From the NCBI GenBank assembly GCA_018302765.1, contig JAGVZG010000026.1:1-31523 (forward strand): DNA of 31,523 nucleotides. The letters are read 5' to 3'. Below are positions 174 to 20,711 of this stretch, one piece after another; the first letter of the stretch is position 1, and each line of letters starts with the position of its first letter. The stretch comes from Candidatus Woesearchaeota archaeon. Its GTDB lineage: Archaea; Nanobdellota; Nanobdellia; SCGC-AAA011-G17; GW2011-AR18. The notes below the pieces were generated by a model. The model was not told the origin of the DNA, did not search any database, and saw nothing but the letters and a program-made list of their open reading frames with translations. The position numbers and the translations under genes are program-made.

Positions 174-2354
174 ATGCCAAAAAAAGAGGATGTTAAAGAT
201 ATTCTGGAAAAGTATCGTTCTAAAATCGAAGAATATGTAGATGTAGAAACAGAAGGGCAAATTGAATCTGAATCAACAAAAGCTTTTTCATCAGAATACA
301 TAAAATTCAGAGAGGAAATATTATCAAAAAATATATCTAATTACGAAAAATGGTGTAATATTTCTGAAACCATAGTAAAACTAAAGCCGTCTGATAAAAA
401 CCTTCCAAGAATAGAAGAAGCAATAAGTACAGCCCATCTCAATATAACACCAACAGGAGCTGCTAGTTTTGCAGCATTATCAAGTTTATTGATTATTTTT
501 CTAGGAATTTTCATATCTGCAATATTATTTCTGTTAATAGGAGAAATTCCAATATTTACTCTTTTAATGTTTCTAATTATTGGATTGGTTGCTTTGATGT
601 ATTTTAATAAAATGCCACTGTTTATAGCAACAAAATGGCGTCTAAAAGCCAGCAACCAAATGGTTCTAGCTATATTGTATGTAGTAATTTATATGAGGCA
701 TACTTCAAATCTAGAACATGCAGTAAAATTTGCAGCACAGCATATTGATGCGCCACTATCTTTAGACTTAAGAAAAGTATTTTGGGATTTAGAAACAGGA
801 AAATTCTCAACAATAAAAGAATCTCTAGACAATTATCTAGAATCTTGGCGTCATTATAATTTAGAGTTTGTTACAGCATTTCATCTAATTGAATCATCTT
901 TGTATGAACCAACACAATCAAGAAGAAGTGATCTTCTGGATAAAGCTCTCAACGTAATTCTAGAAGGAACTTATGAGAAAATGCTGCATTATGCACAAGA
1001 TGTAAAAGGGCCAATAACAACGCTGCACATGCTTGGAGTAATTCTTCCTATATTAGGTTTAGTAGTATTTCCTTTAGTAGGTTCATTTTTGCAAGGACTT
1101 GTAAAATGGTATCACTTAGCATTTCTTTATAATATAATACTTCCAGTTATGGTATTTTCTCTGGGTATGAATATACTTTCAAAAAGACCAACAGGGTATG
1201 GGCAGTCAAAAGTAGCAGAAAGAGTATACCAGAAGGGATTTGATCCTTTTTGGTTGTGTTTTTTCATAGCTACATTACTTATTGTAATTGGATTCCTGCC
1301 AATAATGTTTAAATGGGTCACTCCGCCAACATTCTTAGAGAACCAAAAATGCGCTGTAGGAGATATAGACCTAGGTGACTCACTAGGCTGTTTTTTTGGC
1401 TACTTTGAATTTGGAGGCAAAGCATTCGGCCCTTTTGGTATTGGTGCATTAATTCTTAGTTTTTTTATTCCAGCAGGAGTTGCAATAGGTTTTGGATACT
1501 ACAATAAATTAAAAAGTAAAAAAGTCATAGAGTTAAGAAATGAGACAAAGACATTGGAAAGTGAGTTTGCAAGTACACTTTTTCAGTTAGGAAATAGAAT
1601 TGGTGATGGAATTCCAACAGAGCTTGCATTTAATAAAGTAGCCCAGACAATGGAAGGAACACCATCAGGCAATTTTTTCAGACTGGTTGATGCAAACATT
1701 AGACAGCTGGGAATGGGAATAGAAGAGGCAATATTTAATGAAAAAAATGGAGCGTTGCTTGCTTATCCCTCGCCATTGATAGAAAGCTCAATGGAAGTGC
1801 TCTTAGAAAGCTCAAAGAAAGGACCGCAAATAGTTTCCCAGTCACTTATAAGTATTTCAAATTACGTAGACAAAATACACAAGGTAACAGAGCGTCTTAA
1901 GGACTTGCTTGCAGAAGTAATTTCTTCCATGAAGTCTCAGATATCTTTTCTTACCCCAGCAATAGCAGGAATAGTTGTAGGAATATCAGCAATGATTGTC
2001 AATATTATAGTCGCTTTAAATGTAAAAATATCAAGCTTTTCTCTGGAAGCAACAGGAGAAACAGCAGGTGGTGCTACTGGTTTGACTACAATAGTTGATT
2101 TATTTAAATTAGAAGGAATAATACCTGGTTATTTTTTTCAAATAGTTGTAGGAGTTTACGTTGTACAGTTAGCTTATATATTAACAATTATGCAAAATGG
2201 CATTGAAAATGGTTCAGACAAAATAAACGAACAGCACTTGCTAGGTAAAAACCTAGTAATAAGTTTTCTTCTTTATGCAATAATTGCAACAATAGTTACA
2301 TTGCTGTTTACTTCAATGGCGCAGGGTCTTCTTTCAAAAGAGTTAACAGGCTAA
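174..2354 (+). CDS. Type II secretion system F-family / TadB-TadC (ArlJ/PilC-like) pilus assembly membrane platform protein, apparently two fused T2SSF modules
   Basis: 726 aa polytopic protein with two soluble-domain plus TM-bundle repeats (GPITTLHMLGVILPILGLVVFPLV; MKSQISFLTPAIAGIVVGI); lies directly upstream of a prepilin cluster. Confidence 0.8.
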   Translation: MPKKEDVKDILEKYRSKIEEYVDVETEGQIESESTKAFSSEYIKFREEILSKNISNYEKWCNISETIVKLKPSDKNLPRIEEAISTAHLNITPTGAASFAALSSLLIIFLGIFISAILFLLIGEIPIFTLLMFLIIGLVALMYFNKMPLFIATKWRLKASNQMVLAILYVVIYMRHTSNLEHAVKFAAQHIDAPLSLDLRKVFWDLETGKFSTIKESLDNYLESWRHYNLEFVTAFHLIESSLYEPTQSRRSDLLDKALNVILEGTYEKMLHYAQDVKGPITTLHMLGVILPILGLVVFPLVGSFLQGLVKWYHLAFLYNIILPVMVFSLGMNILSKRPTGYGQSKVAERVYQKGFDPFWLCFFIATLLIVIGFLPIMFKWVTPPTFLENQKCAVGDIDLGDSLGCFFGYFEFGGKAFGPFGIGALILSFFIPAGVAIGFGYYNKLKSKKVIELRNETKTLESEFASTLFQLGNRIGDGIPTELAFNKVAQTMEGTPSGNFFRLVDANIRQLGMGIEEAIFNEKNGALLAYPSPLIESSMEVLLESSKKGPQIVSQSLISISNYVDKIHKVTERLKDLLAEVISSMKSQISFLTPAIAGIVVGISAMIVNIIVALNVKISSFSLEATGETAGGATGLTTIVDLFKLEGIIPGYFFQIVVGVYVVQLAYILTIMQNGIENGSDKINEQHLLGKNLVISFLLYAIIATIVTLLFTSMAQGLLSKELTG

Positions 2355-2389: not shown

Positions 2390-2521
2390 ATGTCTAAAAA
2401 AGGTGAAAGCAGAACTACACTATACGTAATATTTATCCTGATAGCAGCATTATTATTGCTGTTTTTATTGTACAAAATTATACAGCTTAAAGTACTTGGA
2501 GGAATATTCAAAATAATATGA
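2390..2521 (+). CDS. Mini-pilin (43 aa) with class III signal peptide; not in the ORF track
   Basis: Hand translation MSKKG|ESRTTLYVIFILIAALLLLFLLYKIIQLKVLGGIFKII*; TGA overlaps the next ATG (ATGA, 2518-2521). Confidence 0.75.
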   Translation: MSKKGESRTTLYVIFILIAALLLLFLLYKIIQLKVLGGIFKII

Positions 2522-3723
2522 AGAAAGGAATTGAAGCTATAACTGTTGTTATAGTTCTAATAGTTTTTTTGCTTACCTTAGCTATATATATTTTATTTAA
2601 TAAAGCCTATGGAGGAACTTTAGTATCTAGCACAAATCAAGCAGCAATAAATTTATGGGTTAAGGAAAGGTCAGCATCTTTTGGAACTGACAAAATTGTT
2701 GCAGATTATCCGCCTGTTCCAGAACTTGAAGATCCATTGGAAATTAAATCAAGAGATGATTTATTATGGAAAGGAGGCAAACCTCCCAAAGCGTATAAAG
2801 AAATAGGAGATAGTATGATTGATTGTTGGAAATCATTTGATAGAGGAAAAACAGATTTCATTAATACAGTAGAAAGAACACCATTTTGTTTTAAGTGTAG
2901 AGCAATATCATTTTCAAATGAAATAAAAAAAGAAAAAGTTCAGATGCTTGGTTTTAATAGATATTTAAATGAGCAAAAGGTTGGTAGTAAATCAACGCCA
3001 ACATACATGCAGTACTTTGCTAATGATAATTTCTATAACTTATCAGAAGAGGAAATAGGAGAGGACAAGACCATAATTGAAAGAGATTTATACGTATACT
3101 TATTTGCAGCTTCAGGAAGAGGGATTGCTAATATAATGTCTAATTTGCTTGGAGCTGGTGATATAGTACCAGAAGAAGTGAGCAAGGCAAAGACATCAAC
3201 ACTAGCAACCACAACAACAATCAGTGAACGGGCTGAAATTTCAGCAGCAACATCAGGAGTTCTGGCTGCAACTAAGGCAGGCACTTATACTTTGAATACT
3301 TTACAGAAAGCAATGCAGCAAAAAGCAGCTGAATCAGCAGCAGAGACTGCAGCAAGAGGAGCAGTGTCAGCTGAAGCTGCAACAATAACTGAAGCAAAAC
3401 TTATTACAGTAGGAGAATATACTGCAGGAAGAACTGCTGCACAAGCAGGAGAAAAAGTTGTTGTCTCTGTAGCAACAAAAACAGTTGAAGAAAAAGTTGC
3501 AAAAACAGTAGCAAATAAAGTAGCAAGTAGTGCTCTAAGAAGATTGCTTGCAGGTGCCGGTTCGAAAGTTATTGGTGGTCCTATTGGTTGGTATTTAATT
3601 GTAGGAACTGCTGCTTATGGAACTTACAATATAGTTTTCGGAGAGAAGCCATTTTCAGCCAATGTAATGCTTGTTGATCCAGTAGAAGCAAATGCCTTAT
3701 GCAATGCCAAGGCAAAAGAATAA
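2518..3723 (+). CDS. Class III signal peptide (pilin-like) protein, 401 aa, with Cys-containing domain, Ala-rich region and C-terminal Gly-rich hydrophobic segment
   Basis: MKKG|IEAITVVIVLIVFLLTLAIYILF N-terminus; DCW and CFKC motifs; AGAGSKVIGGPIGWYLIVGTAAYG near the C-terminus. Confidence 0.75.
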   Translation: MKKGIEAITVVIVLIVFLLTLAIYILFNKAYGGTLVSSTNQAAINLWVKERSASFGTDKIVADYPPVPELEDPLEIKSRDDLLWKGGKPPKAYKEIGDSMIDCWKSFDRGKTDFINTVERTPFCFKCRAISFSNEIKKEKVQMLGFNRYLNEQKVGSKSTPTYMQYFANDNFYNLSEEEIGEDKTIIERDLYVYLFAASGRGIANIMSNLLGAGDIVPEEVSKAKTSTLATTTTISERAEISAATSGVLAATKAGTYTLNTLQKAMQQKAAESAAETAARGAVSAEAATITEAKLITVGEYTAGRTAAQAGEKVVVSVATKTVEEKVAKTVANKVASSALRRLLAGAGSKVIGGPIGWYLIVGTAAYGTYNIVFGEKPFSANVMLVDPVEANALCNAKAKE

Positions 3724-3725
3724 AT

Positions 3726-3887
3726 ATGAAAAATTCAAATAAGAAAGCAGATTTTGAAATTGAAACAGTTCTAAAGATATTATTAGCGCTTATAATTTTA
3801 CTAGTTATTATTGGATTAATATTTTTATTAAAAGGAAAATCAATTAATATCTTAGAGCAAATAAAAGAGATATTAAGATTAACTTAA
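3726..3887 (+). CDS. Mini-pilin (53 aa) with class III signal peptide; start moved from 3699 to 3726
   Basis: MKNSNKKA|DFEIETVLKILLALIILLVIIGLIFLL with Glu at +5; ATG lies 2 nt after the upstream stop. Confidence 0.8.
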   Translation: MKNSNKKADFEIETVLKILLALIILLVIIGLIFLLKGKSINILEQIKEILRLT

Positions 3888-3890
3888 AAA

Positions 3891-5063
3891 ATGGCAACAG
3901 AATTTCATTTAAGGCCTGTAGTTGTAATAGCTATAGGTTTAATAGTTGTAATTTTTATTTTAGGTTCTATTATTTATGGAGGAGCAACGCCTTTAATAAA
4001 ATCAATAGCAGATCTTTTTCCTTCAAATCAAACAGAGACAAACATTGCAGAAGTCAGCGATAACATCCCATTTTACAATGAATTTATAAAAAATTACAAA
4101 GAATGCAAATTATCTCCTTCTGTAGATTGTTTTTGTTCATTGACAAATCCAACAGTGCCTGAAAATTACATAATTCAAGTAAAAAACAATCCAAGTTCAA
4201 AAACAACATCTATACTTCTGCATTCAAATGCAAGACTAAACAAATGCAATGCAATTTCACCAACAAAGGAATTAAAAGACATACAAACAATTCAAACAGA
4301 TATAACAGACGATTTATTATATTTCAAGAATTATGTTTTTTATCCAACAATAGCACAGGAGCAGACTAAAGAAGTAGAAGTTCCGTCATCCAGTGGAATA
4401 TTGGCTGGTGTTTACAGAAGAGCATACTTAAAAGAAGAGCCAAGTAAAATACAGCAGGCACAATTAGGAAAATTAAAGAAAGAAGAATTTACACAAGCAG
4501 ATAATTTGTTTTTATACAATCTAAATTTATGTTCCTCAAAAGATGTCTCAGGCAATGATGAAATTTCATTTACAAAAGGGATTATTTATAAGTTTAGCAA
4601 TGAAGAAACAACGCTTATTTCAGGATTTACTGGTTTAAAAAGATGCGCAACAATTAAGGATGCATTGCCAGCAGACGAACAGTTTATCAAATTGATTTCA
4701 ACAATAAATGAATGTAAGCAAGGGCCGTGCGCTTTTTCCATAATATCTGCTGAAGGAATTGAATCAGTTATTCCAAAAGATTATGAAATTATAATTGAAG
4801 GTCAAAAGTTAACATTGCAATATAAGGAAGAAAAAGTAAAGACAGCAGAAATAAAAAAAGAAATGTGTTTATTTTCAGACTTTAGAGAAATAACACTAGA
4901 GAATTCAAAGCCATTAACAAAATTAATTTTCAATAATTATATTGGGGCTGAATTTTATGCATTTGATAACAAGATATGTGTTCTTCCTTATACGCCTGAA
5001 ATAAAAAAACAAAAAGATTTACTGCTAGAAAAACTCAAAACAAGGTCTTTAATCCCAACGTAA
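3891..5063 (+). CDS. Membrane-anchored Cys-rich extracellular protein (390 aa) in the pilin cluster; no clear class III cleavage motif
   Basis: N-terminal TM helix VVVIAIGLIVVIFILGSIIY; multiple Cys pairs; probable internal duplication. Confidence 0.7.
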   Translation: MATEFHLRPVVVIAIGLIVVIFILGSIIYGGATPLIKSIADLFPSNQTETNIAEVSDNIPFYNEFIKNYKECKLSPSVDCFCSLTNPTVPENYIIQVKNNPSSKTTSILLHSNARLNKCNAISPTKELKDIQTIQTDITDDLLYFKNYVFYPTIAQEQTKEVEVPSSSGILAGVYRRAYLKEEPSKIQQAQLGKLKKEEFTQADNLFLYNLNLCSSKDVSGNDEISFTKGIIYKFSNEETTLISGFTGLKRCATIKDALPADEQFIKLISTINECKQGPCAFSIISAEGIESVIPKDYEIIIEGQKLTLQYKEEKVKTAEIKKEMCLFSDFREITLENSKPLTKLIFNNYIGAEFYAFDNKICVLPYTPEIKKQKDLLLEKLKTRSLIPT

Positions 5064-5071
5064 CCAAAAGC

Positions 5072-5079
5072 TTTATATA
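5072..5079 (+). promoter_or_regulatory. Putative internal TATA box (TTTATATA) upstream of the 5119 pilin
   Basis: AAAAGC-TTTATATA-G in a 55-nt intergenic gap; SD-like AGGTGTGAT at 5108-5116. Confidence 0.45.
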
Positions 5080-5118
5080 GAAACATCATAATTTATGAAT
5101 TATTAAAAGGTGTGATAG

Positions 5119-5553
5119 ATGTCAAATAGAAAAGCACAAGGTATGCCGATGAATGTTATAATCATTGCAATAATTGTGCTAGTTGTTCTTATTATTTTAA
5201 TTGCATTCTTTGCTGGTGGCTTTAGTAGTGTTGTAGGCAAAGTAAGGGATTTATTCACAGGAACTACTTCAGGTCAGTCAAGAGATGTAGTAATACAAAC
5301 ATGTCAAAATCTCTGTGATACAGCCAAAGTGTTGCCTGAATCATCCCAAAAAATCTCAGGTTATTGCAAGCAGTCTTTTGTAGTAGACATGGATAGTAAT
5401 CCAACAACTAAACCAGAAAGAGTCGTTTGTGGTTCTCCTGCATCAGCTATTACAGCAGAATTTAGTAAATATAAAGAAGATCCAAAAATAGATAACACAG
5501 GTAAGAATAACTTAGGCGTAGACTGTCTAGAAATAAAGTGCGAAAATGTCTAA
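5119..5553 (+). CDS. Type IV pilin-like protein (144 aa), candidate major pilin
   Basis: MSNRKA|QGMPMNVIIIAIIVLVVLIILIAFFAGG class III signal; small Cys-rich head with five Cys; own putative promoter and SD. Confidence 0.85.
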   Translation: MSNRKAQGMPMNVIIIAIIVLVVLIILIAFFAGGFSSVVGKVRDLFTGTTSGQSRDVVIQTCQNLCDTAKVLPESSQKISGYCKQSFVVDMDSNPTTKPERVVCGSPASAITAEFSKYKEDPKIDNTGKNNLGVDCLEIKCENV

Positions 5554-5722
5554 AAAAGGTGTTTCTTTATCTCTAGAAACTATTGTTGTTACAATTCTAA
5601 TTCTTGTTGCTCTTATTCTAATAATTATTTTTGTATTAAAATATGGCGGTCAGTTAAGTTCTAGTATTGGACAGCAAGCAAAGACTAGTGCTTCTATGCT
5701 TCCAAATATAACAACACCATAA
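5546..5722 (+). CDS. Mini-pilin (58 aa) with class III signal peptide; not in the ORF track
   Basis: Hand translation MSKKG|VSLSLETIVVTILILVALILIIIFVLKYGGQLSSSIGQQAKTSASMLPNITTP*; overlaps the upstream stop by 8 nt. Confidence 0.8.
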   Translation: MSKKGVSLSLETIVVTILILVALILIIIFVLKYGGQLSSSIGQQAKTSASMLPNITTP

Positions 5723-5756
5723 CAAATAAATACCAATCAATTCTTTAAATTAAAAT

Positions 5757-7418
5757 ATGAAAAATAAAAGGGGTACAGAGGATATATCACTAAATATTTT
5801 CTTTGGTGTAATTGCTGCATTGCTGATTGTTGGGGCTATTGTCTTAGCAGCTAACAAATTAACTATAAAAACTGGAAAATTTGAATGCCAAAATATAAAT
5901 TTCTGGGATGGTTTTAATGGTTTAAAGGAGAAATTAAAGCAAGTAGACAGTGGAAAACATACAGAATTTATGTTTTATAACAAAGATTGTTATTTAGTCA
6001 GTTTCAGCTTTCTGCAAGCACCACAATTAAATAAAATAGAATATCCACAGCCTTTGCCAAGGGAACCGTTGCTTTGTCTTTGTAAGATAGAAGAAAGCAA
6101 ATGCAAGCCATACGATTGCTACAAATTTGAAAATTATGAAAAAATAAATCAGGAACAATTTTTAACAGAAGACTATGACAATTACCTGTTCCTAGAATTT
6201 ATCAAAGAAGGTAAAACTTTATACATAAAACCTGTTGGATATAAGAAACCAATTGAACCAGCATCGTACACAAAGTCAGAAATATCAGAAAAAACGGATC
6301 CAAAAGGGCTGATTAAAGAATTAAAAATTACGTTCAATGTGAAAGATATAAAATCATTTAATCCTTTTGTAGATGTTAAGGAACCAGGGCTGCTATTGCC
6401 AGCAGGAATTCCAAATATGGAAGGATTTACTCAATTATTTGATATAAATATATCTCATCCTCCACTGTATGGGCAATCTATTGAAGATTATATAGTAAAC
6501 CCAAGGCCAATAGATATAAATGTGGTAAAATCAGCTTACATTTTAATATCTTTGCCTAAAAATAAATATGAAATATTAACAGAACCACAGAAGCAGAATA
6601 TAAATTTATATTTTAAATTAGGTCAAGAATGGAAAAAATCAAAAATGCTGTGTCAGGAAGCAGAAAATGAAGTCTTATGTGAAGCAAATATAGAAGGATT
6701 TTCACAAAATTTTGCTATTTCTATTGAAGAGCAAATAGAAATCACAACAGGCGAATGTGCTGGCTTCGCACCAGGTTTAATTCTAATACAAAAAGACAGT
6801 AAAATCTCATGTTCAGATAAGGTATGTTGTGCTCATCCAGAAGCTGTAGCTCAGATCGAGAAAACAAGAAGTTTAATTGAAAAATCAGATGACTATTTAG
6901 TAATTTTTGACGCTGCAAGAACACTAGAATCTCAACGTCTGGCATTTTTAGACTATCTTTCCGGAGGTTATGAAGCAGCAGGTCCAGAAGGGATAAATAA
7001 ATACAGTTTAGCAGCTGAAGTTACTAAGGCATTCAAAACTGAGTTCGGAAACATTAAGACTACAAAGCAGCAAAAAATTGACTTTGCTTTAAAATGGTTA
7101 TCAGAAAATAAGCCAGAATTACTAGTAATAATAAATGATCTGTCAAAATATATTAAAAATAGTAACCACTACAATGGTCGTGCAATAGATATTAGATTAA
7201 AAGCAATGCCAAGTGATTACAGTAAAGCAAGCAATGATGATGTTATAAGATTACGTAACTTAATGTGTAAATTAGGGTGGGCAAATTATGGCGGTGAATG
7301 GTGGCATTATGAATATAAAACAAGTGATTATGAAACAGCTAAGAAAAATAACCAATGTTTCTGGTCAAAGGATAAATATGCTGATGCTGCAGCAACCGTA
7401 CAACCAAATTATGCATAA
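5757..7418 (+). CDS. Pilin-like protein with class III signal peptide, Cys-rich domain, PGF-pre-PGF-like domain and C-terminal M15 (VanX/VanY-like) Zn peptidase
   Basis: MKNKRG|TE followed by a TM helix; LYFKLGQEW...EANIEGFSQNFAI; DAARTLESQ, SNHYNGRAID and GEWWHYEY motifs. Confidence 0.85.
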   Translation: MKNKRGTEDISLNIFFGVIAALLIVGAIVLAANKLTIKTGKFECQNINFWDGFNGLKEKLKQVDSGKHTEFMFYNKDCYLVSFSFLQAPQLNKIEYPQPLPREPLLCLCKIEESKCKPYDCYKFENYEKINQEQFLTEDYDNYLFLEFIKEGKTLYIKPVGYKKPIEPASYTKSEISEKTDPKGLIKELKITFNVKDIKSFNPFVDVKEPGLLLPAGIPNMEGFTQLFDINISHPPLYGQSIEDYIVNPRPIDINVVKSAYILISLPKNKYEILTEPQKQNINLYFKLGQEWKKSKMLCQEAENEVLCEANIEGFSQNFAISIEEQIEITTGECAGFAPGLILIQKDSKISCSDKVCCAHPEAVAQIEKTRSLIEKSDDYLVIFDAARTLESQRLAFLDYLSGGYEAAGPEGINKYSLAAEVTKAFKTEFGNIKTTKQQKIDFALKWLSENKPELLVIINDLSKYIKNSNHYNGRAIDIRLKAMPSDYSKASNDDVIRLRNLMCKLGWANYGGEWWHYEYKTSDYETAKKNNQCFWSKDKYADAAATVQPNYA

Positions 7419-7420
7419 AT

Positions 7421-7801
7421 ATGAAAAAAGGTAAAATACAAATAGGACTGGAATTATTTATACACTTGGCCTTATTATTAATAGTTATAGCTGCATTTTT
7501 TTCTGTTACTGGATTAATAAAAAATAATATTTCTCATGATTTGCGTGCAGAAGCAAAAGACTATGTTCTTACACATGATGCAATAATTTCTTATTCAGAC
7601 AATTTAAATTATGTCTATAATCCAAGGGAAAATGTAACTATTATATTTGATGAAGCTAACTGTTTGGTTGAAGCAAGGCACAAATCAGAATTAACACAGC
7701 CAGTAAGGTTTTTTTGTGGCACAGATAAGTCTGCTTTTACAAAAGCTGAAAGAATCAACAATAAAATTATTATAAAAAATGAGCAAAAAAGGGATATTTA
7801 A
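7421..7801 (+). CDS. Minor pilin-like protein (126 aa), class III signal peptide
   Basis: MKKG|KIQIGLELFIHLALLLIVIAAFFSV; Cys pair. Confidence 0.7.
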   Translation: MKKGKIQIGLELFIHLALLLIVIAAFFSVTGLIKNNISHDLRAEAKDYVLTHDAIISYSDNLNYVYNPRENVTIIFDEANCLVEARHKSELTQPVRFFCGTDKSAFTKAERINNKIIIKNEQKRDI

Positions 7802-8258
7802 TATTGTAGAATATATTGTTTATTTAATATTTATTATAATTGGGGCTTCATTTATAGCAATTGTGGCATTTGGATATTTAAATGAAAAAATAGACACAAC
7901 AAATTTAGAAGCTTTTATACTGACTAAAAAATTAATATATTCAGAATCCTGTCTTGCATTTAAAGATAATTTAGGTTTGCATAAAGGTATTATAGATATA
8001 CAAAAAGTAGACACAAGCAAGATAATAAGTTGTTTTACAAAGCCAAACTTAGGTTACATTGTAAGTATTAGTAATTTGGATGGTAAAATAATAAAATCAG
8101 CATCAAATTTAAATCTAAAGCAACAATTAGATCTTCCTGTTTGTAAAACAATAAAACAATATAAATGCCATAGCAGAACGGATATAATATTATATAAAGA
8201 AGGAGAAGAAACTAAAACAGGTTTTATAAATATAGAGGTGATTAATCTTGTGGGATAA
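7779..8258 (+). CDS. Minor pilin-like protein (159 aa), class III signal peptide
   Basis: MSKKG|IFNIVEYIVYLIFIIIGASFIAIVAFG; four Cys. Confidence 0.75.
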   Translation: MSKKGIFNIVEYIVYLIFIIIGASFIAIVAFGYLNEKIDTTNLEAFILTKKLIYSESCLAFKDNLGLHKGIIDIQKVDTSKIISCFTKPNLGYIVSISNLDGKIIKSASNLNLKQQLDLPVCKTIKQYKCHSRTDIILYKEGEETKTGFINIEVINLVG

Positions 8259-8814
8259 AAAAGGAGATTATGGCTTTCCTATTTATTTCGTGCCTGTCTT
8301 GGCTATTTTTGTAATAGTTTTAATTATATTTTCAGCATTGTTTTTTGCATCTAATATTATTAAAAGTCCGAACTTAATAATAAAATCTGTAAAATATCAG
8401 GACAGTTCAAAAGTTTTAACAATATTAAAGTCTGTAGTGCCAGTAGAAAATAAAAATATCACAATTGCAGAATTAATATCATTAGCTTTTGAAGATTCTA
8501 AATATGAAGGAAAATTAGGTGAGGAAATAAAAACATTTTTATCCAAATTACCCAAGCCACAAAGAAAAGAAGATCTTACTGAATCTAAATTATTAATTAT
8601 AGAAGCAACAAAGTCAAGTTTGCAGAAGGCAAATTGGATTTTAGAAATAGAGTCAAATGGCAGAACTATAGCTTTTGGAGAAAAATCCACATTTGGAATG
8701 AAATATTTCCTGCAAAATGCAATAATTCCTTTATCATTCAATAACATAGCGAAAATTAAATTATACCTAGATTGTTTTTCATGTTCAGAGGAGGGAATAA
8801 ATGCAATTGCATAA
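8248..8814 (+). CDS. Minor pilin-like protein (188 aa), class III signal peptide, TTG start
   Basis: MWDKKG|DYGFPIYFVPVLAIFVIVLIIFSALFF; SD GAGGTGA at 8235-8241. Confidence 0.75.
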   Translation: MWDKKGDYGFPIYFVPVLAIFVIVLIIFSALFFASNIIKSPNLIIKSVKYQDSSKVLTILKSVVPVENKNITIAELISLAFEDSKYEGKLGEEIKTFLSKLPKPQRKEDLTESKLLIIEATKSSLQKANWILEIESNGRTIAFGEKSTFGMKYFLQNAIIPLSFNNIAKIKLYLDCFSCSEEGINAIA

Positions 8815-9688
8815 AATAAACAAAAAAGGCCAGATATTTCTATTTGGTTATGTGATAATTTACACCATTATACTTATCTCATTATTTTTTACAACAATAT
8901 CAGCAGCCAATAAAAAAGAAGATATTATTGGTCTAAGGGCAATAAATTTAATAAAAGCAAACCAGGAATCTGATAATATAGAATTGTATTTAGACATGGC
9001 AGCAAAATATTCTTATGAGAATTCACTGAATAAATTGGCTGAAAATGGTGGTTATTCAGAGGAAAATAGATGTGAAAAAACACAACCAACAATTATAGAT
9101 AGAGAAGAATATGTAATACTAAATACTTGCCAAGTTCTGGATTCAAATGGAGAATTCCAAAGCCAGTTAAAAAAAGAAATAAAATATTACTTAAATATTT
9201 ATGAAAGCAGTTATACAAAAACAAGTTTTAAAGACGATTTCAATATAGAAAAAGAATATCCTCGTTTGGAAGGAGTACCAGAAAAAATCAAAGATGACTA
9301 CAATTATATTTATACCCAAGCTATTAAAAATACAAAAATTGAAAAAATAGAACAAGGCAGTAAAAATTTAATTATAGCATTTTCAGATGTTATTCTACCT
9401 ATAGAAAATGACGAGATTTCATACTTAAATTTAAAGCCAGAAATTTCAATAGACAAACCAGATTTTACAATTTATAAAGAAATACATCTGGCAATAAACA
9501 ATTATTGTATAAAAAAGGATAAAAAAACTTGTGAAGAAGCACTAAAAATTAAATTCAAGGATATAAATATTTATACAGAAGGAATACTATTCAAAATAAT
9601 AATACCTTATAATAATTATAAAATTAAATTGGCATTTTATAATGATAAGATGATTCCACTTATGCAAGATTTGACTAATACCGTTTAA
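8801..9688 (+). CDS. Pilin-like protein (295 aa), class III signal peptide
   Basis: MQLHKINKKG|QIFLFGYVIIYTIILISLFF; SD-like GAGGAGG at 8788-8794; two Cys pairs. Confidence 0.75.
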   Translation: MQLHKINKKGQIFLFGYVIIYTIILISLFFTTISAANKKEDIIGLRAINLIKANQESDNIELYLDMAAKYSYENSLNKLAENGGYSEENRCEKTQPTIIDREEYVILNTCQVLDSNGEFQSQLKKEIKYYLNIYESSYTKTSFKDDFNIEKEYPRLEGVPEKIKDDYNYIYTQAIKNTKIEKIEQGSKNLIIAFSDVILPIENDEISYLNLKPEISIDKPDFTIYKEIHLAINNYCIKKDKKTCEEALKIKFKDINIYTEGILFKIIIPYNNYKIKLAFYNDKMIPLMQDLTNTV

Positions 9689-20604: not shown

Positions 20605-20677
20605 GCCTCTGTCGTCTAGCGGTCAGGACACGAGTTTCATAAGCTCGATATCGTCGGTTCAAATCCGACCAGAGGCA
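20605..20677 (+). tRNA. tRNA with CAT anticodon, most likely elongator tRNA-Met; intronless, CCA not encoded
   Basis: GCCTCTG/CAGAGGC acceptor; CGAGT-TTCATAA-GCTCG anticodon arm; GTCGG-TTCAAAT-CCGAC T arm; lacks the initiator A1:U72 and GGG/CCC features; Ile2 not fully excluded. Confidence 0.88.
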
Positions 20678-20711
20678 CTTTTATAAAATAATACTTTAAT
20701 TATAAATTAAT

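What the first reader, a model, noticed from the sequence alone, without database searches (positions are those of the whole stretch)
5757..7418. Prepilin-type protein fused to an apparently intact M15 (VanX/VanY-like) Zn peptidase in an archaeon
Seen: DAARTLESQ (Arg codon 6918-6920), SNHYNGRAID (His 7167, Asp 7188) and LMCKLGWANYGGEWWHYEY (Glu 7296, His 7305). Known: these match the SxHxxGxAxD and ExxH Zn-ligand/catalytic set and the transition-state Arg of MEROPS M15 enzymes, which cleave D-Ala-D-Ala or L-Ala-D-Glu bonds of peptidoglycan peptides. Archaea lack murein. Archaeal peptidoglycan hydrolase homologues have been reported (recalled, not checked), but I do not recognise this pilin fusion. 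The domain seems to lack the VanX N-terminal segment and DMGT-x-FD loop, suggesting an open cleft for polymeric substrate (inference).
Basis: partly seen in the sequence, partly recalled or inferred. Interest (0 to 1): 0.9.

Follow-up and report, generated by a model that had tools for sequence, protein, structure and literature searches.

The report
Pilin-like archaeal protein carrying cell-wall peptidase
A tiny groundwater archaeon that makes no bacterial-type cell wall encodes, inside a pilus gene cluster, a pilin-like surface protein ending in an apparently intact zinc peptidase of the kind that cuts bacterial cell-wall peptides; its relatives carry other wall-cutting enzymes at the same position, which suggests a pilus-borne tool kit for attacking bacteria.

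Summary
ORF 5757-7418 (553 aa) has every motif at the stated codons. R388, H471, D478, E514 and H517 are invariant in 21 relatives. The C-terminal 224 aa model confidently (pLDDT 96), and every top structural match has the LAS/M15 fold (VanY, VanXYc, LdcB, VanX).

By profile comparison it is a diverged VanY-type domain (E 1.8e-39). It has a roughly 50-residue helical insert and lacks VanX's cavity-closing loop.

The N-terminus (MKNKRG, then a hydrophobic helix) is one of nine adjacent class-III-like leaders. They follow a GspF-like platform gene. The genome has a prepilin peptidase, and the cognate ATPase lies at a contig end.

New here: the 330-aa Cys-rich carrier is conserved in all nine sampled genomes of the family, but its C-terminal cargo is swapped. 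Cargos seen are M15-like, SLT, SLT+M23, SLT+amidase_2, or none. In another genome the same M15-like domain sits on two other subunits of the locus.

The genome has no Mur ligase or Ddl, so the likely substrate is foreign murein.

Archaeal peptidoglycan hydrolases are published, including LysM+M15 in Woesearchaeales, and so are bacterial modular pilins. I found no report of this combination. Activity, bond specificity and pilus display are untested.

The parts
5757..7418 (+). Whole gene: 553-aa pilin-like carrier fused to an M15/LAS peptidase domain
   Evidence: ORF list. Full-length orthologues P0002 (53% identity) and P0003 (46%). Single copy in the genome.
5757..5774 (+). Short basic leader MKNKRG, the putative class III (prepilin) signal ending in Gly
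   Evidence: Sequence. K4 is invariant and K/R-G (one K-A) is conserved in orthologues. The same K-K/R-G motif occurs in 9 adjacent ORFs.
5784..5858 (+). Hydrophobic N-terminal alpha-helix (residues about 10-34)
   Evidence: The AF2 model has helix 10-34. Hydrophobic stretch seen in the sequence.
5877..6743 (+). Cys-rich, beta-rich carrier module (residues about 41-329), no known family or fold
6744..7415 (+). M15/LAS-fold zinc peptidase domain (residues 330-553), a diverged VanY type
6918..6935 (+). R388-x4-Q393 motif (AARTLESQ)
   Evidence: Invariant in 21 sequences. Aligns with the SAYRxxxxQ consensus of VanY-type relatives.
7161..7190 (+). SNHYNGRAID: H471 and D478, putative Zn ligands
   Evidence: Invariant. 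Aligned to the VanX SSHSRGSAID segment.
7296..7307 (+). EWWH: E514 (putative catalytic base) and H517 (third Zn ligand)
   Evidence: Invariant. Aligned to the VanX EWWHY segment.
6999..7151 (+). Family-specific helical insert (residues about 415-465) between the Arg motif and the His-Asp motif
   Evidence: Gap in the hhalign alignment against VanY-type relatives. Helices 86-101, 108-122 and 124-136 of the domain model.
174..2354 (+). GspF/T2SSF-like polytopic platform protein of the locus
   Evidence: Atlas feature score 0.98 and TM 0.88 to an archaeal 'GspF domain' cluster. No Pfam hit by itself.
2390..9688 (+). Run of co-oriented pilin-like genes (43, 401, 53, 390, 144, 58, 553, 126, 159, 188 and 295 aa)
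   Evidence: N-termini listed. 9 of the genome's 56 class-III-like leaders lie here. Synteny is conserved in three other contigs.

Best explanation
The gene encodes an extracellular modular pilin-like protein of a DPANN (Nanoarchaeia/Woesearchaeota-type) archaeon. A class-III-type leader and hydrophobic helix put the protein into the pathway of the adjacent type-IV-pilus-like machine (ATPase, GspF-like platform, prepilin peptidase). This step is inferred. A 290-aa disulfide-rich carrier module then holds out a zinc peptidase of the M15/LAS fold. The Zn triad (H471, D478, H517), the catalytic Glu514 and Arg388 are intact. The peptidase most likely cleaves a D-amino-acid-containing bond in the stem peptide or cross-link of bacterial peptidoglycan. 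The exact bond is unknown. The organism has no murein or pseudomurein synthesis genes, so the substrate is another cell's wall. The locus therefore acts as a contact-dependent kit for breaching or digesting the bacterial envelope, for host attachment and feeding or for antagonism. Different lineages mount different hydrolases (M15-like, VanY, SLT, M23, amidase_2, GDSL esterase) on the same carriers.
For: Shown: The M15/LAS fold has high confidence, and all 50 top structural matches are LAS enzymes. Catalytic residues are invariant in 21 homologues. There is a profile link to VanX and to VanY-type domains.

Cargo swapping on the orthologous carrier: amidase_2 (P0005, P0006, P0019, P0026); SLT (P0008, P0018, P0033); SLT+M23 (P0027, L002 711 aa); SLT+amidase_2 (P0030); and M15-like (P0002, P0003, P0025). 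In the same taxonomic family the carrier is in 9 of 9 genomes with varying cargo.

The same M15-like domain sits on orthologues of two other locus subunits, window ORFs 3891-5063 and 8801-9688, in L002. It also co-occurs with SLT in P0017 and P0024.

Other archaeal contigs place canonical VanY-bearing, KKG-leader proteins next to the RPA gene, one with an SLT gene alongside.

Locus: a GspF-like platform. A T2SSE ATPase lies upstream in the P0003 contig. Its orthologue is at the end of own contig C23. An A24 prepilin peptidase is in the genome. Leaders are clustered, 9 of 56 in 7.3 kb of a 1.02 Mb genome.

No Mur ligase and no Ddl were found in a genome estimated 100% complete.

Extracellular location fits 14 Cys, with conserved Cys in both modules.
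Against: There are no biochemical data, and bond specificity cannot be read from sequence. Single-sequence Pfam scores are below the gathering threshold. No Pfam or NCBIfam archaeal pilin or class-III-signal model hits any protein of the locus. The carrier has no recognisable pilin fold. Processing by the prepilin peptidase and incorporation into a filament therefore rest on motif and context only. No recognised cell-wall-binding domain is present. No bacterial partner is known for this lineage.
Confidence: 0.68

Rival explanations
1. The enzyme is a real peptidoglycan peptidase but is not part of a filament. The N-terminal helix is a signal anchor, or a class III signal used only for export as in type II secretion. 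The protein then stays membrane-tethered on the archaeal surface or is released.
For: No pilin-family HMM hit. No pilin fold match for the carrier. A low-confidence linker at residues 36-40 follows the helix. Published Woesearchaeales M15 and SLT hydrolases are annotated as Sec-secreted.
Against: The K-K/R-G leader recurs in nine adjacent genes. The gene sits in the middle of a conserved ATPase-platform-pilin cluster. The cargo moves between different pilin-like subunits of that same cluster.
Confidence: 0.22
2. The LAS domain is a non-lytic binding or scavenging module. It could be an adhesin recognising D-Ala-terminated stem peptides. It could instead be a carboxypeptidase or dipeptidase that harvests D-Ala from released muropeptides as food rather than breaching walls.
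For: The nearest families, VanY and LdcB, are carboxypeptidases, not endopeptidases. Hedgehog N-domains share the fold without known protease function.
Against: The catalytic Glu and all Zn ligands are invariant. The domain is interchangeable with clearly lytic domains, SLT, M23 and amidase_2. The VanX cavity-closing loop that restricts VanX to dipeptides is absent.
Confidence: 0.07
3. The enzyme remodels the archaeon's own envelope, for example to let the pilus through a murein-like or pseudomurein-like layer.
For: Bacterial secretion and pilus systems often carry dedicated wall hydrolases (general knowledge; papers cited within PMC12102498).
Against: The complete 1.02-Mb genome has no Mur-ligase family and no Ddl genes. 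SLT, amidase_2 and M15 chemistries target murein, not pseudomurein (established knowledge).
Confidence: 0.03

Closest known systems
VanY / LdcB-type M15B carboxypeptidases (PF02557; PDB 5hnm, 4mph, 4ox3) and VanXYc (4mus)
   Different: About 15-22% identity. An extra helical insert of about 50 residues. An N-terminal Cys-rich beta-hairpin and conserved disulfide Cys. Below the Pfam threshold as a single sequence. Fused to a pilin-like carrier. Found in an archaeon.
VanX / DdpX D-Ala-D-Ala dipeptidases (M15D, PF01427; PDB 1r44)
   Same: The best sequence-level match in the PDB, E 1.9e-5. Identical EWWHY and SxHxxGxAxD segments. NCBIfam DdpX hit at E 5.8e-7 over the ExxH region.
   Different: Lacks the 24-residue loop that closes the VanX cavity. 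Extracellular and tethered, not cytoplasmic.
Archaeal modular peptidoglycan hydrolases (Strock et al. 2025, PMC12352652)
   Same: Archaea without murein encode murein hydrolases, and Nanoarchaeota are prominent. Supplementary table S2 of that paper lists LysM+Peptidase_M15 and LysM+SLT in Woesearchaeales.
   Different: Those proteins were defined by a known wall-binding domain plus a catalytic domain, and some are marked Sec. This protein has no recognised binding domain, has a class-III-like leader and sits in a pilus locus. The words pilin and pilus do not occur in that paper's main text.
Modular type IV pilins of bacteria (PilB and PilC of Streptococcus sanguinis; Raynaud et al. 2021, PMC8179133)
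   Same: A functional module is grafted onto the C-terminus of a pilin for display by the filament. Many architectures exist.
   Different: The described cases are bacterial. Their modules are mainly adhesive, and the only enzymatic one named is IPR030392. The paper's main text has no occurrence of 'archaea' or 'hydrolase'.
'Large lytic murein transglycosylases' of Woesearchaeota (Vigneron et al. 2022, PMC9723730; AR20 genome)
   Same: The same lineage and the same inferred anti-bacterial role. Possibly includes SLT-bearing relatives of this carrier family; not checked.
   Different: Only the GH23 domain was noted there. The paper has no occurrence of 'pili' or 'pilin', and neither the carrier nor the M15 variants are described.

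Membership tests
MEROPS M15 / LAS zinc peptidases | Zn-ligand triad His-x6-Asp ... His | tested here: met
   H471, D478 and H517 are present and invariant in 21 homologues. They align with the VanX ligand segments.
MEROPS M15 / LAS zinc peptidases | Catalytic Glu three residues before the last His (ExxH), and Arg in the R-x4-Q motif | tested here: met
   E514, R388 and Q393 are invariant. They align with the VanY-type consensus SAYRxxxxQ / ExWHFEY.
MEROPS M15 / LAS zinc peptidases | LAS (hedgehog / DD-peptidase) fold | tested here: met
MEROPS M15 / LAS zinc peptidases | Significant sequence-model match | tested here: inconclusive
   The single sequence is below the Pfam cut-offs, 18 against 27 bits and 18.2 against 25. 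Relatives P0023, P0020 and P0014 pass PF01427. The family profile hits VanX at E 1.9e-5. hhalign to VanY-type relatives gives E 1.8e-39.
MEROPS M15 / LAS zinc peptidases | Zn-dependent hydrolysis of a D-amino-acid-containing peptide bond | not testable with these tools
   Needs an enzyme assay.
VanX/DdpX dipeptidase subfamily (M15D) | Loop between the Asp ligand and ExxH that closes the cavity around a dipeptide | tested here: not met
   A 24-residue VanX segment is absent in the profile alignment. D478 to E514 is 35 residues.
Archaeal type IV (pre)pilin | Class III signal: short basic leader ending in Gly/Ala directly followed by a hydrophobic helix of about 20 residues | tested here: inconclusive
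   The pattern MKNKRG | TEDISLNIFFGVIAALLIVGAIVLA is present and shared by 9 adjacent ORFs. No Pfam or NCBIfam pilin or class-III model hit was found, and no dedicated predictor was available.
Archaeal type IV (pre)pilin | Encoded with a T2SSE-type ATPase and a GspF/PilC-type platform, with a prepilin peptidase in the genome | tested here: met
   Platform at 174-2354. ATPase adjacent in the P0003 contig. Its orthologue is at the end of own contig C23. An A24 peptidase is on C28.
Archaeal type IV (pre)pilin | Cleavage by the prepilin peptidase and assembly into a filament | not testable with these tools
   Needs N-terminal mass spectrometry or cryo-EM.
Modular peptidoglycan hydrolase sensu Strock et al. 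2025 | Catalytic domain plus a recognised cell-wall-binding domain (LysM, PG_binding, SH3 and similar) | tested here: not met

The most novel reading that the evidence does not exclude
Some DPANN archaea build a type-IV-pilus-like filament whose subunits carry interchangeable envelope-degrading enzymes (M15/VanY peptidases, lytic transglycosylases, M23, amidase_2, GDSL esterases). In effect this would be a pilus-mounted drill for opening bacterial cells. It would be molecular evidence that these archaea parasitise or prey on bacteria rather than on other archaea. It would also be the first case of enzymatically armed pilins delivering wall hydrolases across domains.
Probability: 0.35. Interest if true: 0.85.

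Novelty: new variant of a known kind. Interest (0 to 1): 0.7.

Why it matters
Hosts and lifestyles of Woesearchaeota-type DPANN archaea are largely unknown. A conserved pilus locus whose subunits carry swappable murein hydrolases gives a concrete, testable mechanism for archaeon-on-bacterium attack. It provides candidate marker genes for finding such interactions in metagenomes. It extends the 'modular pilin' idea to archaea and to lytic enzymes. It also reveals peptidoglycan hydrolases that screens based on known wall-binding domains probably miss. The diverged, disulfide-rich M15 domain and its unknown carrier are candidates for new enzybiotic scaffolds.

Tried and rejected
- A single-sequence search of the PDB found nothing.
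- Pfam and NCBIfam gave only sub-threshold M15 hits for the target and none for the neighbouring pilin-like ORFs.
- The Atlas fold library for the C-terminal model was unavailable.
- The profile sent to the representative search unintentionally covered both the N- and C-terminal halves of P0003. The hits were therefore sorted by matched profile range.
- No DNA was retrievable for the P0003 contigs.
- No RNA holder was listed among the sequencing runs.
- The P0080 contig (T4SS_pilin+VanY) was too short to tell whether it is bacterial or archaeal.
- A self-wall role is judged unlikely because Mur ligase and Ddl are absent.
- A VanX-type dipeptidase is judged unlikely because the cavity-closing loop is missing.

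Full report
**1. Observation**

The window is a complete 31.5-kb contig (C12) of a 1.02-Mb, 28-contig genome estimated 100% complete. GC content is about 28%.

ORF 5757-7418 (+) encodes 553 aa. The codon coordinates map to R388, H471, D478, E514 and H517.

As a single sequence the protein gives only sub-threshold family hits:
- PF01427: E 0.0027, 18 bits against a cut-off of 27.
- PF13539: 18.2 bits against 25.
- NCBIfam DdpX: E 5.8e-7 over residues 489-523.
- PDB sequences: no match.

**2. The C-terminal domain is an intact, diverged M15/LAS peptidase**

Homologues were collected. An alignment of 21 domains (A3) shows R388, Q393, H471, G474, D478, R500, C504, E514, W516, H517 and C534 to be invariant.

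AlphaFold2 on this alignment gives a very confident model of residues 330-553 (pLDDT 96.3, pTM 0.89).
- Foldseek ranks VanY-B, VanXYc, LdcB and VanX first, at probability 1.0 and TM 0.4-0.5.

The family profile hits VanX (1r44) at E 1.9e-5. That alignment shows that VanX has a 24-residue segment between the Asp ligand and ExxH which is missing here.

Weaker hits of the representative search form a second group (A5). 35 of 40 carry canonical PF02557 VanY and PF01427. hhalign between the two groups gives 100% probability and E 1.8e-39 over domain residues 6-207. The only large difference is a helical insert of about 50 residues (protein residues about 415-465) in the family studied here.

The domain is therefore a VanY-type (M15B-like) derivative, not a VanX-type dipeptidase. 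It begins at about residue 330 with a conserved Cys-containing beta-hairpin, not at 355. So the claim that the N-terminal segment is missing is not supported.

**3. The N-terminus and the locus**

The protein begins MKNKRG, followed by a hydrophobic helix. AF2 models a helix at residues 10-34.

The same K-K/R-G (or K-A) leader plus helix occurs in the neighbouring ORFs of 43, 401, 53, 144, 58, 126, 159, 188 and 295 aa. A simple pattern scan of the whole genome finds 56 such ORFs among 3665. Nine of them are contiguous at 2390-9688, which is 7.3 kb of 1.02 Mb.

Machinery associated with the locus:
- The 726-aa ORF at 174-2354 has no Pfam hit. In the ESM Atlas it matches archaeal 'GspF domain' and T2SSF clusters (score 0.98, TM 0.88).
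- In the contig of orthologue P0003, a T2SSE ATPase lies directly upstream of the platform gene.
- In the contig of orthologue P0002, the upstream partial gene is 58% identical to the C-terminus of a 1284-aa T2SSE-like ORF. That ORF sits at the very end of the own genome's contig C23. The ATPase therefore probably adjoins the window start.
- An A24 prepilin peptidase is present on C28.

Against this, no Pfam or NCBIfam pilin or class-III-signal model hits any of these proteins. The 290-aa carrier module is beta-rich with 8 invariant Cys and has no convincing structural relative. 'Prepilin-type' is thus well supported by motif and context, but processing and assembly are inferred.

**4. What the surroundings add: swappable cargo**

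This is the main new result.

Proteins sharing the N-terminal carrier end in different murein hydrolase domains:

| Cargo | Proteins |
|---|---|
| M15-like | P0002, P0003, P0025 |
| amidase_2 | P0005, P0006, P0019, P0026 |
| SLT | P0008, P0018, P0033 |
| SLT+M23 | P0027, and the 711-aa gene of L002 |
| SLT+amidase_2 | P0030 |
| none (about 330 aa) | many |

In a sample of 301 genomes of the same class, the carrier was found in 9 of 9 genomes of the window's family and in none of the others, with this single-sequence query. The cargo on those orthologues is SLT+M23, SLT, SLT+amidase_2, SLT, none or unrecognised.

The M15-like domain itself was found in only 4 of the 301 genomes. Outside the window it sits in very long open frames, one of which also carries SLT.

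In contig L002 the same M15-like domain is attached to orthologues of two other subunits of the locus:
- Window ORF 3891-5063: E 7e-40.
- Window ORF 8801-9688: E 3e-59, there together with a GDSL esterase.

The VanY-type relatives also start with an MxxKKG consensus. Two of them were checked and lie in small-ORF clusters just upstream of the archaeal RPA gene, as here. One has an SLT gene alongside.

SLT domains occur in 85 of 301 genomes of the class and canonical VanY in 6 of 301.

**5. Substrate**

The genome contains no Mur-ligase-family gene and no D-Ala-D-Ala-ligase-type gene, while the control genomes ring. It does contain two more SLT-bearing ORFs elsewhere. The wall being cut is therefore not the archaeon's own.

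All interchangeable cargos are murein-specific chemistries, so bacterial peptidoglycan is the most likely target. Which bond the M15-like domain cleaves cannot be inferred. It could be a carboxypeptidase, an L-Ala-D-Glu endopeptidase or a cross-link endopeptidase.

**6. Organism and habitat**

Archaeal markers in the window are RPA, diphthamide synthase and ZPR1. Relatives are annotated Candidatus Nanoarchaeia or Woesearchaeota. The gene is held by many groundwater and some soil metagenome runs, and no RNA run is listed.

**7. Comparison with the literature**

- Strock et al. 2025 (PMC12352652) showed that about 5% of archaeal genomes encode modular peptidoglycan hydrolases, with Nanoarchaeota prominent. 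Their S2 table lists LysM+Peptidase_M15 and LysM+SLT proteins in Woesearchaeales, some marked Sec. Pilin and pilus are not mentioned in the main text.
- Vigneron et al. 2022 (PMC9723730) noted 'large lytic murein transglycosylases' in Woesearchaeota and proposed predation. The paper does not mention pili.
- Raynaud et al. 2021 (PMC8179133) defined modular pilins in bacteria. The modules are mostly adhesive, and archaea are not mentioned in the main text.
- Full-text searches combining Woesearchaeota or DPANN with pilin and peptidoglycan terms found no paper describing pilin-hydrolase fusions in archaea. That is no proof that none exists.

**8. Verdict**

Archaeal murein hydrolases and modular pilins are each known. 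The combination is a new variant with a clear, testable mechanism. It consists of a conserved DPANN pilus-locus carrier with interchangeable murein-hydrolase cargo, of which this M15-like domain is one.

Confidence:
- About 0.8 that the domain is an active murein-directed peptidase.
- About 0.55 that it is displayed on a filament.
- 0.68 for the combined statement as worded.

Noticed in passing
L002:6934-9129 and L010:5960-7867: Pilin-locus subunits in related contigs carry a GDSL lipase/esterase domain. In L002 it sits on the orthologue of window ORF 8801-9688 together with the M15-like domain. It could be a peptidoglycan O-acetylesterase or a lipase aimed at the prey envelope.
   Followed up: partly
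G000:C16:21188-21568 (381-aa ORF) and G000:C26:28217-28378 (2262-aa open frame): Two further SLT (lytic transglycosylase) domains lie elsewhere in the same genome, one in a giant protein. In related genomes the M15-like and SLT domains also occur in open frames of 1600-2600 aa.
   Followed up: partly
P0080 (L028:307-1629), P0076: These proteins combine a PF18895 T4SS_pilin domain with a VanY domain; 8 of the 40 weaker hits have this family. It may be a parallel 'pilin plus wall peptidase' fusion, perhaps in Patescibacteria. The contig is too short to assign an organism.
   Followed up: partly
G000:C13:21304-25458, C16:121-3417, C21:439-21519, C5:103460-105063: There are at least four more clusters of ORFs with class-III-like leaders in this 1-Mb genome, and two lie near T2SSE ATPase hits (C13, C5). 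That is an unusually large share of a tiny genome devoted to pilus-like systems.
   Followed up: no
window:1-173: The contig starts with a comparatively GC-rich non-coding stretch that has no ORF and no Rfam match. It may be the edge of an unassembled RNA gene or repeat.
   Followed up: partly
window:18763-18847 and 20605-20678: ARAGORN and Rfam (gathering threshold) find only one tRNA in the window, tRNA-Met at 20605-20678. That does not exclude a non-canonical intron.
   Followed up: partly
window:2518-3723: This 401-aa pilin-like protein has a long Ala/Thr/Glu/Lys-rich segment and a Gly-rich hydrophobic tail. It has no family hit.
   Followed up: no
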